Shown here one piece after another: positions 30,001 to 33,000 of a stretch of DNA of 64,000 bases. The stretch is from assembly GCA_943787795.1 (NCBI GenBank), contig CALSNU010000003.1:160001-224000 (forward strand). The letters are read 5' to 3'. The position numbers were made by a program. The DNA is from an uncultured bacterium (GTDB lineage: Bacteria > Planctomycetota > UBA1135 > GCA-002686595). The stretch's first letter is position 1. Every line of letters begins with the position of its first letter.

Positions 30001-33000
30001 CGCGCTCGCCCTGTTGCTGCCCGTCCTGGTGGGCGCGCCGGTCCTGTACCGGTCCTGGGCCACATACCAGGGCATGAAGGCCGTGTCGGATCCTGTCGGT
30101 TCGGCCGCGCACTTTCTCCTCTCCGTGGGGTGGTACGTCACGCCGGCGCTGGGGGCGGCCGCGGTGGCTGCGGTGATCCTCGCGGTCCGTAGCGGCGATC
30201 GACGATGCCGCTTCGTGATGATCGTCGCGGCCCTTGGAACGGGGGCGCTCCTCGGGCTCTCGATGGTGGCGACGGTCTCTGCGCAGTACTTCTTCTCCTT
30301 CTTTCCCTTCGTGGCGCTGGTGGCCGCGTGGCCGCTTGGGTCCCCGGGGCTGAGCCGGACCCCGTGGGCGCGCAACGCCCTTGCCGTAGGGCTCATCTTG
30401 CCGCAGGTCGCTGGAGCCGGGCTCTACCTGACCTCGGAGCGAGGGCAGCGGCCCCGGTGGCGTGAAGCGGCTGAGTACGTCGCTGCGCATCGTGAGCCTG
30501 GAGACTCCGTCGCATCAGACCCGGCAGCGGTGGTCGAGTTCTACCTCGGCGACCGCGATCCGCGCTGGGTCCGCCGGACCAGGGACGTGGTCTCCTTCGA
30601 CCAATTCAACCCCTGGTTCGTGCGGAGCGAGGTGAAGAAGGGGGGGGCGGTCTGGCTCGTCCTGAGGAACGACAACCTGATGCGGTATGACGCGGAGCTT
30701 CGCGCCCGCTTCCTCAGCTATGTCGCCGACAACTTCCAACTCGTCCAGCGGTTCCCGGTCCTCGTGGCGGGAAGAGATCTTTCAATCGACGTCTGGCATC
30801 ACCGGTGAAGGGCGGCGCGGCCCTGACCGGGTCGCGAGTTCCGGGACCCGCGAGGTGCCCCCTTGGGGGCCAGGCTAGGAGCCAGCTGGGCAAGACCTCC
30901 CAGAGACCCTGAGCCGGGCGTGAGCCCAGGCTCCCGATGCTGCCGGCCCCGGCAGAAGGTCAGGCGCTCGAGACCCGTTAGGCCCTCGAGACCCGTTACG
31001 CCCTCGAGACCCGTTACGCCCTCGAGACCCGTTACGCCCTCGAGACCCGTTACGCCCTCGAGACCCGTTACGCCCTCGAGACCCGTTACGCCCTCGAGAC
31101 GAAGTCGCCGGTGTCGGTGTTCACCTTCACCTTGTCGCCCACGTGGACGTGCAGGGGGACGCGGATCTTGAATCCAGTCTCGAGGACCGCGTCCTTCTTG
31201 ATGTTGGTGGCGGAGTTCCCCTTCACGGCTTGCTCGGCCTCGGTGACCTCAAGGACCACCTGGGTCGGGAGCGCGATGGAGACAGGGGTGGTCTCGTGCC
31301 AGGTGATCTCCACCTCCTCGGACTCCTTGACGAAGCACATCTTCTCCCCGGCCATCTCCTTATCGAGGTTGAACTGGTCGAAGGTCTCCGAGTCCATGAA
31401 CACGAAGTCCCCCGTCGCTTCCTGATAGAGGTACTGCGCCTTCTTCTTGTCCAGGTAGGCCACCTCGAAGGGATCGCCGGCCGCCGGACGGAACGAGCCG
31501 GATCCGCCCGTCTGCAGGTTCTTGGTCTTGACCTGGATGATCGCTCGCCAGTTTCCCGGCGTGCTGTGGCTGTAGTCGGTGATGAGGAGGAGCTGGCCGT
31601 CCTTGAGGAGGACCTGTCCCTTGCGCAGTTCGGTCGCCTTGACGTTCATCGGGATCTTGCGTGGAGCACGCCGCCTGGCGGGCCGGTTGCGGTGGGCAAG
31701 CGGCGGGCCAGAGTGCCGGAGAGCATAGCCGCCTGGGGGCCCTCCGGGCTACCGGCCAATGGCGGTGATGGGCCCGGGGAGATCTCAGGGGAGGAGCGCC
31801 GCCCCTTGAGCTCAATACTGGCGGCGCTGAGTCGACGAGGCGATCTCAAGAGCCTTGCGATACTTGGTCACGGTCCTGCGGGCGATCTTGATGCCCTCGG
31901 AGTCTTCGAGGGCCTTGGCGATCCCCTCGTCCGAGAGCGGCCGAGCCGGGTCCTCCGCGGCGACGATGGCCTTGATCCGCTCCTTGATCGAGATCTGGCT
32001 GGTCGCCTCGCCGGAGGACTTGGTCGTCCCGCCCGTGAAGAAGAACTTCAGGGGGAAGATCCCGCGCGGCGTCTGGGCGTGCTTGCCCGCCACGCCCCGG
32101 GACACCGTCGAGATGTGGACGCCGACCTCGTCCGCGATCTCCTGCATGCGGAGGGGCTTGAGCGCCTCCTTACCGCGCTCGAGGAAGCCCTTCTGGCGCT
32201 GGAAGAGGGCGGTCGAGATCCGCTCCAGCGTCGACTGCCGCTGGGCGAGGGCGTCGATGAACCAGCTCGCCGCCTCGAGCTTCTTTCGGGCCCAGTCGCG
32301 CTCCTCCGGGTCGCCCTCCTTGAGGAGCTTGCGGAAGGCCTGGGTCTGGTACATGGGGCTCATGCGCAGGCTCGGGGTCCGCTCGCGGTCCAGGCGGACC
32401 TCGATGGTCCCGTCCTCCTCGTCGAGGTGCACCATCACCTCGGGGTGGATCACCTCGGCGGAGGCCTCTCCGAAGCCTGCTCCCGGTGAAGGGTCGAGCC
32501 CTTGAAGGAGCTCGATGGCGGCCTTGACCTCCTCGATGTCGTGCCCCGTGGACCGCGCGATCTGCGGCAGTCGGTTCGCGCGCACGTCCTCAAGGTGGCG
32601 CTCGATGAGCTGTCGCATGAGCGGGTTCCAGAGCCCCTTGCTCGGCAGCTGCAGGAGGAGGCACTCCCGCAGGTCCAGGGCGCCGAGTCCGGGGTGGACG
32701 GCTTCCCGCAGTCGCTCGAGAGCGTCGCGGACCTCGTCCTCGGTGACGACCATGTCCCCATCATCGAGGGCGTCTTCGCCCCGGGCCTCCCCGCCCGTAT
32801 CGATCGCGCTGGTATCGATCGCGCTGGCATCCTTCCCGCTGGCATGGCCGTCGGGCGATACGGCTGGGGTCTGGCTAGCCCCGTCCTCTTCTGAGGGCTC
32901 GAGGGCGAGCGTGCTGGCCGTACCTTCCTCCGCTGCGTCTGCCCTCGCTGCGTCTGCCCTCGCTGGGTCTGCCCCCGCTGGGTCCGGGCCTTCGGGCTCA

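What a model noticed while it worked through the whole genome (the two positions that open the first line are those of the whole stretch)
31086..31649. Main EF-P carries Asn, not Lys or Arg, at the tip of the ribosome-reaching loop (T-P-G-N-W-R), a subfamily shared by hal [...]
The canonical EF-P (g01914, EF-P equivalog TIGR00038) has the loop H-S-T-P-G-N-W-R-A where E. coli has K-P-G-K34-G (motif recalled; seen here as PGKG in 10 other planctomycete EF-Ps). The residue that carries the activating modification in all studied EF-Ps (beta-lysyl-Lys, 5-aminopentanol-Lys, rhamnosyl-Arg), or is at least Lys (PGKGP type), is an asparagine. No known modifying enzyme (EpmA/B, EarP) is detectable. The same P-G-N-(W/L/K) loop is found in 15 of 29 other Planctomycetota genomes sampled, so it marks a large uncharacterised EF-P class. 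The second paralogue (g00349, C1:448093-448662) has a longer S-T-P-T-A-R-G-G-N loop of the EfpL/YeiP kind.
Evidence so far: Sequences: g01914 ...DYSHSTPGNWRAIIQVKTK..., g00349 ...DYTVSTPTARGGNTIFKTK.... ncbifam.tsv: g01914 TIGR00038 equivalog, E 6e-58, cover 0.99. Pfam names EarP, DUF2331, LAM_C have no row; only three tRNA-synt_2 genes (AspRS, AsnRS, LysRS), so no EpmA. Search of 30 genomes (all but G000 at least 92% complete; call 119) with g01914, best hit of each fetched; tblastn of residues 1-75, no gaps in the loop stretch: PGN(W/L/K) in G000 and 15 others (incl. both other genomes of the order), PGKG in 10, other loops in 2, no N-terminal hit in 2. Paper read in passages (PMC11388002, calls 122-123): Planctomycetota hold 'EF-P types with unknown modifications (which cluster into three distinct EF-P familie [...]
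(Added by a program. Inside this text positions count along the whole contig: contig position 160,001 is position 1 of the stretch shown here. "Call 12" and the like, gene names such as g00115 and contig names such as C1 are that model's own, and its searches are not shown. The text may have been shortened before it was handed on; [...] marks where a part breaks off. The agent that wrote the report below was given it as the finding of a first reader that could run no searches.)

Follow-up and report, generated by a model that had tools for sequence, protein, structure and literature searches.

The report
Asparagine-tipped elongation factor P
This gene is a normal-looking translation factor EF-P whose ribosome-reaching loop ends in asparagine instead of the usual modified lysine or arginine; the form is common in Planctomycetota and already catalogued in print, but how it works has never been tested.

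Summary
Window 31086-31649 (- strand) encodes a 187-aa EF-P, above the NCBIfam EF-P cut-offs, with an EF-P fold. Asn33 sits at the centre of the seven-residue loop T-P-G-N-W-R-A, aligned without gaps to the modified Lys of solved EF-Ps.

The class is large. 92 of 201 sampled Planctomycetota genomes have an Asn tip, and in 54 of those 92 it is the only EF-P hit. Named relatives also occur outside the phylum, for example in Candidatus Wallbacteria.

The loop signature is coordinated: T-P-G-N-[L/W/K]-R. Arg at +2 is nearly invariant and Gly never occurs at +1.

It is not new. Asn-tip EF-Ps are counted or mentioned in Bailly 2010, Volkwein 2019, Sieber 2024 and the supplement of Brewer & Wagner 2024, which says native planctomycetal EF-Ps carry Asn or Lys. 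This scan also met the class before on other DNA (e1-7605552, e1-704910). I found no functional test in print.

EpmB was not found, and the EpmA model hits only aminoacyl-tRNA-synthetase-sized frames below its cut-off. The EarP search found nothing, but its controls also found nothing.

In two sister families a homologue lies directly beside the Asn-type efp.

Best reading (0.55): the loop works without a post-translational modification.

The parts
31086..31649 (-). efp coding sequence, 187 aa plus stop: the canonical three-domain EF-P
   Evidence: Foldseek TM 0.86-0.88 to 1ueb_A, 4v6a_AV and 6enj_w.
31542..31562 (-). Codons of the seven-residue beta3-omega-beta4 loop, T30-P31-G32-N33-W34-R35-A36
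   Evidence: Sequence read. Loop limits from DSSP on the model. T30, P31, G32, N33 and R35 are invariant in 42 relatives.
31551..31553 (-). AAC codon of Asn33, the loop tip, at the position of the modified Lys or Arg of studied EF-Ps
   Evidence: Ungapped alignment to PDB EF-Ps. Asn in all 119 of 120 listed homologues where the loop could be read.
31812..33692 (-). Context: rpoN (sigma-54) directly upstream on the same strand, 162-bp gap to efp
   Evidence: Pfam Sigma54_AID/CBD/DBD. Found beside efp in 72 of 80 related loci.
29288..30808 (+). Context: 506-aa membrane protein, weakly PMT/GT-C-like, convergent with efp
   Evidence: Pfam PMT E 0.0022 and PMT_2 E 0.0036, both below cut-off; NCBIfam Agl23 E 1e-4. 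Found beside efp in 68 of 80 related loci.
30967..31100 (.). 18-bp tandem repeat, 7.4 copies, that starts in the last codons of efp. Each unit repeats the codons R-V-S-R-A-stop.
   Evidence: Arrays with different units lie at the same place in relatives.

Best explanation
This is the housekeeping elongation factor P of a planctomycete related to Saltatorellus. It belongs to the Asn-tip class, whose loop reads T-P-G-N-[L/W/K]-R-[A/G].

Shown here: its identity, its fold, the position of Asn33 at the loop centre, the strict conservation of the loop, and the failure to find the EpmA/EpmB route.

[quoted passage not shown] In this reading the Asn carboxamide makes hydrogen bonds at the tip. The nearly invariant Arg two residues later supplies the positive charge that Lys or Arg supplies elsewhere. 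The bulky residue that replaces the universal Gly at +1 stiffens the loop and protects the Asn from deamidation. This would be a third modification-free design, beside the PGKGP loop and the lengthened EfpL loop.
For: Identity.

Loop under strong selection:
- All 119 of 120 listed homologues in which the loop could be read (62-96% identity) have H-x-T-P-G-N-(W/L)-R-(A/S). One is cut at the N-terminus.
- In 56 Asn-tip cluster representatives down to about 32% identity: P 55/56, G 56/56, R at +2 53/56, and L 28, W 20, K 8 at +1, never Gly. All 57 Lys-tip representatives have Gly at +1 and a variable +2.

It must be functional on its own. It is the only EF-P hit in 54 of 92 Asn-tip genomes, spread over 28 family codes. 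The own genome keeps the conserved proline triplet of ValS, M-I-P-P-P-N-V-T-G.

No known activation route was found: no EpmB, and no EpmA above cut-off.

No candidate modifier sits beside the gene. Among 40 Asn-type loci from 36 family codes plus the window, the only clusters in more than 7 loci were efp itself and ORFs antisense to it.

Asn and Lys loops swap inside one orthologous lineage. T-P-G-K-G-Q-A occurs in 10 of 151 genomes of the order, including G135 of the same family at 58.6% identity. EpmB was not found in G135, G205 and G215, which are 3 of the 5 such genomes tested.

Printed precedent, read as a passage of Sieber 2024: loop stiffening and loop lengthening 'functionalize the protein without modification'.

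From established chemistry, not tested here: beta-lysylation, aminopentanolylation and deoxyhypusination need an amine, rhamnosylation by EarP needs a guanidino group, and Asn offers neither.
Against: - No protein mass data exist for any Asn-tip EF-P in the papers searched, so 'unmodified' is an inference from absence.
- The genome is only 84.9% complete. The EarP search had no working positive control. EpmC and YmfI/YnbB/GsaB were not searched.
- An invariant Asn and Arg could equally be the recognition site of an unknown enzyme.
- A DS-family gene is found in 85 of 92 Asn-tip genomes against 31 of 56 Lys-tip genomes, and lies beside efp in two sister families.
- The side-chain roles given to Asn33, W34 and R35 rest on sequence pattern only. 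No ribosome complex was modelled.
- The 2026 review describes the tip as Lys or Arg only, so there is no experimental precedent for an amide tip.
Confidence: 0.55

Rival explanations
1. Asn33, or the neighbouring Arg35, carries a so far unknown post-translational modification, for example hydroxylation, methylation or glycosylation. The enzyme would be encoded elsewhere in the genome, and the modification would be needed for activity, as in the Lys and Arg types.
For: - Most studied EF-P types need a modification (passages of Brewer & Wagner 2024, and the 2026 review).
- About half of bacterial genomes have EF-Ps of unknown modification class.
- N33 and R35 are invariant over wide divergence: 56/56 and 53/56 representatives, and invariant in the 32-sequence alignment A3. 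That is what an enzyme recognition site would look like.
Against: - No gene is conserved next to Asn-type efp across 36 family codes, whereas epmB and earP usually flank their efp.
- No known chemistry of EF-P or eIF5A modification uses an amide side chain (established knowledge).
- The N-W-R sequence is not an N-x-S/T sequon (read directly from the sequence).
Confidence: 0.25
2. The deoxyhypusine-synthase-like (DS family) enzyme is functionally coupled to the Asn-type EF-P. It might modify the factor, or it might make a polyamine such as homospermidine that the factor needs. Volkwein 2019 floated this idea.
For: - The own genome has a DS-family gene: Pfam DS at 120.9 bits (cut-off 27), with the W-G-K motif invariant in 13 aligned homologues.
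- DS genes occur in 85 of 92 Asn-tip genomes against 31 of 56 Lys-tip genomes.
- In family f80 (G206, G211) the order is rpoN, DS, efp on one strand; in G206 the DS-efp gap is 72 bp. In family f4 (G149, G207) DS and efp are convergent neighbours.
- The one Lys-tip genome of the own family, G135, has no DS hit.
Against: - The efp-adjacent DS genes pass the NCBIfam equivalog 'homospermidine biosynthesis protein' (485 and 538.5 bits, cut-off 450), which names a polyamine enzyme.
- The own copy is unlinked to efp, only 31% identical to those genes, and below every cut-off.
- Adjacency is rare: 1 of 92 Asn-tip genomes in the phylum sample.
- DS is also common with Lys tips.
- Seven Asn-tip genomes have no DS hit.
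- Aminobutyl transfer needs an amine acceptor, which Asn lacks (established chemistry).
- Related genomes are not independent observations, so the counts overstate the association.
Confidence: 0.08
3. In this genome the Asn-tip protein has a reduced or altered role. The Arg-tipped paralogue with the EfpL-like loop (C1:448096-448653) does the polyproline rescue.
For: - All 8 sampled genomes of family f1, G000 included, have two EF-P hits.
- The paralogue has a P-T-A-R-G loop two residues longer, as in E. coli EfpL.
Against: - The Asn-tip form is the only EF-P hit in 54 of 92 genomes that carry it.
- It scores above the EF-P equivalog cut-off while the paralogue does not (180.6 against a cut-off of 185.8).
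- Its loop is invariant.
- The printed view is that EfpL plays a supporting role and always accompanies an EF-P.
Confidence: 0.1

Closest known systems
Asn-tip EF-Ps as catalogued in print: Bailly & de Crecy-Lagard 2010 (PMC2821294); Volkwein et al. 2019 (PMC6544042); Sieber et al. 2024 (PMC11611912); Brewer & Wagner 2024 (PMC11388002), supplement, 'Family 11' and Fig. S10
   Same: Asn at the protruding position, Pro two residues before it, no EpmA/EpmB, and native to non-Planctomycetia Planctomycetota. This gene is a member of that class.
   Different: Nothing essential. Added here: the coordinated T-P-G-N-[L/W/K]-R signature, sole-copy statistics, Asn/Lys swaps within one family, and DS-efp adjacency in two sister families.
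Lys-type EF-P activated by EpmA/EpmB(/EpmC), as in E. coli (6enj, 3a5z)
   Same: Three-domain fold, seven-residue loop, and Pro-Gly before the tip.
   Different: The tip is Asn, not Lys. Position +1 is W/L/K, not Gly. Position +2 is a fixed Arg. EpmB was not found, and EpmA was not found above its cut-off.
Unmodified PGKGP-type EF-P of Actinobacteria (6s8z; Pinheiro 2020, known to me only through citing passages)
   Same: Probably active without modification, through the make-up of the loop itself.
   Different: That type keeps Lys at the tip and relies on a Pro at +2. Here the tip is Asn and +2 is Arg.
EfpL/YeiP (8s8u; Sieber 2024)
   Same: Unmodified, and relies on an Arg in the loop.
   Different: The EfpL loop is two residues longer, with Arg at the tip. 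The window gene has the standard seven-residue loop. The EfpL-like protein of this genome is the other paralogue.
Arg-type EF-P rhamnosylated by EarP (3oyy, 6j7m)
   Same: A non-Lys tip, and an Arg that matters in the loop.
   Different: There the Arg is the tip and Pro at -2 is selected against. Here Pro is kept and the Arg is at +2. No EarP hit was found, but the control for that search was not informative.

Membership tests
Elongation factor P (TIGR00038 / NF001810) | Whole-protein score above the curated cut-offs | tested here: met
   193.3 bits against 185.8, and 194.2 against 161.
Elongation factor P (TIGR00038 / NF001810) | Three domains: KOW-like N domain, OB domain and C-terminal OB domain, in an EF-P fold | tested here: met
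   Pfam EFP_N, EFP and Elong-fact-P_C. Foldseek TM 0.86-0.88 to 1ueb, 4v6a_AV and 6enj_w.
Elongation factor P (TIGR00038 / NF001810) | Basic residue (Lys or Arg) at the tip of the beta3-omega-beta4 loop | tested here: not met
   Asn33. This is the point of the finding. The literature already accepts Asn-tip proteins as EF-Ps.
Asn-tip EF-P class (Bailly 2010; Volkwein 2019; Brewer & Wagner 2024, Family 11) | Asn at the protruding position together with Pro two residues upstream | tested here: met
   P31-G32-N33. Volkwein reports 100% co-occurrence of tip Asn with this Pro.
Asn-tip EF-P class (Bailly 2010; Volkwein 2019; Brewer & Wagner 2024, Family 11) | Native EF-P of Planctomycetota outside the EpmAB-bearing Planctomycetia | tested here: met
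   Closest named relatives are Saltatorellus ferox Poly30, Rohdeia mirabilis and Engelhardtia mirabilis. The rpoN-efp synteny is conserved in 72 of 80 loci. The paper's own family assignment of this sequence could not be checked.
Lys-EpmAB type | Lys tip plus epmA and epmB in the genome | tested here: not met
   Asn tip. TIGR03821 finds no hit. The best TIGR00462 hit, 244.3 bits (cut-off 286.9), lies in a 517-aa open frame. The genome is 84.9% complete.
Arg-EarP type | Arg tip plus earP | tested here: inconclusive
   The tip is not Arg, so that part is not met. PF10093 finds nothing, but the model also rang in none of the 14 control genomes.
Unmodified PGKGP type | P-G-K-G-P loop | tested here: not met
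   The loop is P-G-N-W-R.
EfpL/YeiP | Loop longer than seven residues with Arg at its tip (Sieber 2024); NCBIfam NF003392 / TIGR02178 cut-offs | tested here: not met
   The window gene has a seven-residue loop and scores 123.4 (cut-off 216) and 107.4 (cut-off 264). The paralogue meets the loop definition but not the cut-offs: 179.6 and 163.4.
DHS-coupled EF-P / eIF5A-like system | A DHS homologue in the genome, linked to the factor's gene, and an amine acceptor at the tip | tested here: not met
   A DS-family gene is present but unlinked in this genome. Its best NCBIfam match is the 'homospermidine biosynthesis protein' model at 194.5 bits, below the 450 cut-off. Asn has no amine (chemistry, not tested).

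The most novel reading that the evidence does not exclude
The T-P-G-N-[L/W/K]-R loop is a distinct way of making EF-P active. One version is that an amide tip plus a displaced arginine works at the peptidyl-transferase centre with no modification. The bolder version is a new modification or cofactor route tied to the bacterial deoxyhypusine-synthase homologues, which sit in an rpoN-DS-efp gene row in sister families of this organism.
Probability: 0.2. Interest if true: 0.8.

Novelty: new member of a known kind. Interest (0 to 1): 0.4.

Why it matters
EF-P, like eIF5A, is thought to need a long basic side chain, usually modified, to reach the peptidyl-transferase centre. In nearly half of the sampled Planctomycetota genomes (92 of 201) the best-scoring EF-P hit has a short amide side chain at that position, and in 54 of those 92 it is the only EF-P hit. 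Named relatives also occur in other lineages.

Showing how this loop works would settle whether the tip residue must be basic. It would also help explain the roughly half of bacterial EF-Ps that fall into no known modification class.

Cultured relatives exist (Saltatorellus ferox, Rohdeia mirabilis, Engelhardtia mirabilis), so the question can be tested directly. As a discovery the finding adds little, because the class has been in print since 2010.

Tried and rejected
- **Complex prediction.** Two copies of the efp-adjacent DS-like protein of G206 (alignment A2) with residues 1-70 of that genome's EF-P (alignment A3): no verdict, score 0.00, controls not run. This is evidence neither for nor against binding.
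- **Conserved neighbours.** I clustered all ORFs of 90 aa or more in 40 Asn-type loci plus the window. The second and third largest clusters (26 and 11 loci) were ORFs antisense to efp itself, so they are artefacts. The next clusters had 7, 5 and 4 loci. The 7-locus cluster is a lipoate ligase fused to lipoyl synthase and the 5-locus cluster is an ABC ATPase; the two 4-locus clusters whose representatives had Pfam matches are phosphoglycerate dehydrogenase and an NtrC-type activator. None is a plausible modifier.
- **The 506-aa PMT-like membrane protein next to efp.** It is syntenic in 68 of 80 close loci. I rejected it as a modifier because it is convergent with efp, matches PMT models only weakly, and GT-C enzymes act on the outer face of the membrane (established knowledge). 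This synteny does not extend beyond the order.
- **Strict DNA pattern for H-x-T-P-G-N-x-R.** 32 of 109 sites lay outside the listed EF-P hits. Of the 28 fetched, 27 showed no EF-P similarity and one was a second, cut copy in G008.
- **EarP search.** Uninformative, because no control genome rang.
- **Not tried.** EpmC and YmfI/YnbB/GsaB searches; candidate Asn hydroxylases, methyltransferases or glycosyltransferases; classifying the 52 genomes whose best EF-P hit fell below the 150 listed rows.
- **Not visible.** The figures of the papers (only legends were available), and Supplementary Dataset S1 of Volkwein 2019, which I did not open.
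Full report
**1. The observation**

The ORF at window 31086..31649 on the - strand encodes 187 residues. 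It passes both NCBIfam EF-P models: NF001810 at 194.2 bits (cut-off 161) and TIGR00038 at 193.3 bits (cut-off 185.8). It has the three Pfam EF-P domains.

Residues 28-36 read H-S-T-P-G-N-W-R-A. The Asn33 codon AAC lies at 31551-31553. phmmer against PDB EF-Ps (1yby, 6rk3, 6rji, 6s8z) aligns this stretch without gaps to H-V-K-P-G-K-G-(A/S/P)-A, which places N33 on the tip lysine.

An AlphaFold2 model built on 42 relatives has mean pLDDT 85.7. It has strands 19-29 and 37-44, so residues 30-36 form the seven-residue loop with N33 at its centre. Foldseek matches solved EF-Ps: TM 0.88 to 1ueb_A, 0.86 to ribosome-bound 4v6a_AV and 0.86 to 6enj_w.

**2. How conserved the loop is, and what defines the class**

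- The word-indexed search returned 711 proteins with E below 1e-10 and listed the best 120. The loop could be read in 119 of those, at 62-96% identity, and every one has H-x-T-P-G-N-(W/L)-R-(A/S). The remaining hit is cut at the N-terminus.
- In the 42-sequence alignment T30, P31, G32, N33 and R35 are invariant, although mean column identity is only 75%.
- The exhaustive search of 50%-identity representatives listed its best 150. The tip residue is Asn in 56, Lys in 57, Arg in 27, Gln in 6, Glu in 1 and Met in 1. Two fragments lack the region.
- In the 56 Asn-tip representatives, down to about 32% identity: Thr at -3 in 48, Pro at -2 in 55, Gly at -1 in 56, and Arg at +2 in 53. Position +1 is Leu in 28, Trp in 20 and Lys in 8, and never Gly.
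- In the 57 Lys-tip representatives: Lys at -3 in 41 and Gly at +1 in 57, with a variable +2.

So the class is defined by a coordinated replacement of four loop positions, not by a single substitution. Asn-Gly is the dipeptide most prone to deamidation (recalled protein chemistry). The loss of Gly at +1 is therefore consistent with selection to keep the Asn intact. That is an inference.

**3. Distribution**

I sampled 200 Planctomycetota genomes at 90% completeness or better, plus the window's own genome. 199 of 201 have an EF-P hit.

I read the loop from a strict DNA pattern that fell inside the EF-P hit (77 genomes). For the other 72 listed hits I fetched the gene. The result is 92 Asn tips, 56 Lys tips and 1 Arg tip. 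52 genomes stay unclassified: 50 whose best hit fell below the 150 listed rows, and 2 with no hit. The 15 Asn tips outside the strict pattern have variant loops such as [I/V]-A-P-G-N-W-R-A, N-T-P-G-N-K-G-G and L-T-P-G-N-K-P-A.

Asn tips occur in 39 of 74 family codes. In 54 of the 92 Asn-tip genomes, spread over 28 family codes, this is the only EF-P hit at E below 1e-5.

In the window's order, the pattern H-x-[T/A]-P-G-N-x-R-A is present in 96 of 151 genomes, including 41 of 43 other members of its family. The reversed-pattern control gave only 2 hits.

Named members of more distant Asn-tip clusters include Phycisphaerae, Candidatus Wallbacteria and a bin labelled Spirochaetes. Earlier notes of this scan report the same class in Gemmatimonadaceae and Binataceae. 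I did not check those genomes.

**4. Asn and Lys interchange within one lineage**

G135 belongs to the same family and its EF-P is 58.6% identical to the window's. It has T-P-G-K-G-Q-A instead. That loop occurs in 10 of 151 genomes of the order: 7 of 8 in family f79, 2 of 44 in f2 and 1 of 43 in f1.

I tested five of these genomes for EpmB. G135, G205 and G215 have no hit. G090 has only a sub-threshold relative at 106 bits. G316 has a true EpmB at 422 bits against a cut-off of 369. This matches the 'lysine/asparagine' family of Brewer & Wagner.

**5. Known modification genes in the own genome (84.9% complete)**

- EpmB (TIGR03821): no hit.
- EpmA (TIGR00462): the best hit, 244.3 bits against a cut-off of 286.9, lies in a 517-aa open frame. 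The weaker hits lie in 633-aa and 507-aa frames. From their size I take these for aminoacyl-tRNA synthetases.
- EarP (PF10093): no hit, but the model rang in none of the 14 control genomes, so this absence is not validated.
- EpmC and YmfI/YnbB/GsaB were not searched.

**6.

The gene is at C1:1253185-1254114, in a probable 420-aa ORF, and matches Pfam DS at 120.9 bits (cut-off 27). Its best NCBIfam model is 'homospermidine biosynthesis protein' NF001980 at 194.5 bits, far below the 450 cut-off. The deoxyhypusine synthase models score 48-86 bits. The W-G-K motif is invariant in 13 aligned homologues. I recall this motif as holding the catalytic lysine of human DHS, and did not test that.

In the phylum sample a DS gene is found in 85 of 92 Asn-tip genomes, 31 of 56 Lys-tip genomes and 27 of 52 unclassified genomes. 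Seven Asn-tip genomes lack it. These genomes are related, so the contrast overstates the association.

Linkage is rare. In the phylum sample only G149 has DS next to efp. In the order I found:

- In G206 and G211 (family f80) the row is rpoN, DS, efp on one strand. In G206 (locus L231) the DS-efp gap is 72 bp, and a GDSL-type gene and a convergent PMT_2 gene follow.
- In G149 and G207 (family f4) DS and efp are convergent neighbours.
- In G218 they lie 5.5 kb apart. In G213 they are on different contigs. In G216 the contig ends right after DS.

The efp-adjacent genes of G206 and G149 pass the NF001980 equivalog at 485 and 538.5 bits. The own copy is 31% identical to the G206 gene.

In the window's genome the same syntenic frame is kept: rpoN, a 162-bp gap, efp, then a convergent PMT-like membrane gene. 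There is no DS gene in it.

Volkwein 2019 had already remarked that DHS-like proteins occur in organisms whose EF-P tip is Lys 'or alternatively an asparagine', and suggested without proof that they might modify EF-P. I rate this as a minor rival. The adjacent genes are named polyamine enzymes, and an amide is not an acceptor for aminobutyl transfer.

**7. Other context**

- Among 80 related loci (58-98% identity, many cut by contig ends), rpoN lies beside efp in 72, the PMT-like membrane protein in 68, a PEGA-domain protein in 60 and an NtrC-type activator in 59.
- Across 40 Asn-type loci from 36 family codes nothing but efp is shared widely. So there is no neighbourhood signal for a dedicated modifier.
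- The genome keeps the conserved proline triplet of ValS, M-I-P-P-P-N-V-T-G-V-L-H-M-G-H. Its translation is EF-P dependent in studied bacteria (passage).
- The paralogue at C1:448096-448653 has a loop two residues longer, containing P-T-A-R-G as in E. coli EfpL. It scores below the EfpL and YeiP cut-offs, and just below the EF-P equivalog.

**8. Literature** (what I saw is given for each paper)

- Brewer & Wagner 2024 (PMC11388002): outline, section 8, passages, and parts 1 and 3 of the supplementary PDF. [quoted passage not shown] The legend of Fig. S10 says native planctomycetal EF-Ps have 'either an asparagine or a lysine'.
- Volkwein 2019 (PMC6544042), passages: Asn at the tip co-occurs 100% with Pro at -2; Asn arose after Arg in their reconstruction; and the DHS remark.
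- Bailly & de Crecy-Lagard 2010 (PMC2821294), passages: 2.2% Asn among EF-Ps of genomes lacking yjeA/yjeK.
- The 2026 review (PMC13602936), the 2026 BMC Biology paper (PMC12931083) and the Tomasiunaite preprint, passages only: none mentions an Asn tip.
- Three full-text searches found no functional study of an Asn-tip EF-P: 'elongation factor P' + Planctomycetes + asparagine; EF-P + PGKGP; EF-P + asparagine + EarP + EpmA.

**9. Verdict**

This is a genuine member of an already catalogued but untested class. The most likely mechanism is a modification-free loop in which the fixed Arg at +2 and the Asn amide replace the long basic tip. I put that at 0.55. An unknown modification (0.25), a DHS-homologue link (0.08) and a reduced role beside the EfpL-like paralogue (0.10) remain open.

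Noticed in passing
window 30967-31100: An 18-bp tandem repeat, 7.4 copies at 99% match, begins inside the last codons of efp. On the coding strand every unit reads R-V-S-R-A-stop, so the gene's end and its stop codon are duplicated in frame. Of 79 related loci tested, 7 have arrays with other units directly after efp: L006 18 bp x 4.0, L007 17 x 3.5, L017 19 x 5.0, L018 (Saltatorellus ferox) 17 x 4.2, L034 17 x 4.9, L021 12 x 5.5 and L036 14 x 4.5. L011 has none. The window holds several other short arrays: 12 TRF rows at score 80 or more, some of them overlapping.
   Followed up: partly
L231:2393-8470 (G206), L232, L188:1686-6552 (G149), L228: In two sister families of the order a 'homospermidine biosynthesis protein' (DHS homologue; NF001980 485 and 538.5 bits, cut-off 450) lies directly beside the Asn-type efp. 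In f80 the row is rpoN, DS, efp (72-bp gap), a GDSL-type gene, then a convergent PMT_2 gene. In f4 DS and efp are convergent.
   Followed up: partly
G000 C1:1253185-1254114 (L005:1291-2550, - strand): The own genome has a divergent DS-family protein, a probable 420-aa ORF, just downstream of an ORF that I took for a quinolinate synthase by eye (no family search was run on it). It is below every NCBIfam DHS and homospermidine cut-off but keeps the W-G-K motif.
   Followed up: partly
G135:C12:173480-174037 (L086); G090, G316, family f79: Lys-tip revertants (T-P-G-K-G-Q-A) occur inside the otherwise Asn-tip order. G135 of the same family has no DS hit and no EpmB hit. G316 has a true EpmB at 422 bits.
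   Followed up: partly
window 29288-30808 (+) and 28685-29539 (-): A 506-aa membrane protein with weak PMT/GT-C similarity and a PEGA-domain protein are syntenic with efp in 68 and 60 of 80 related loci. Their function is unknown.
   Followed up: partly
window 33763-35427 (-) and 35272-36321 (+): Two conserved ORFs without significant family matches lie upstream of rpoN. They are found in 32 and 51 of 80 related loci.
   Followed up: no
G000 C1:448096-448653 (L240:1094-1660): The second EF-P paralogue has an EfpL-type P-T-A-R-G loop but falls below the EfpL, YeiP and EF-P equivalog cut-offs. Only the NF001810 subfamily model is passed, at 180.2 bits against 161.
   Followed up: yes
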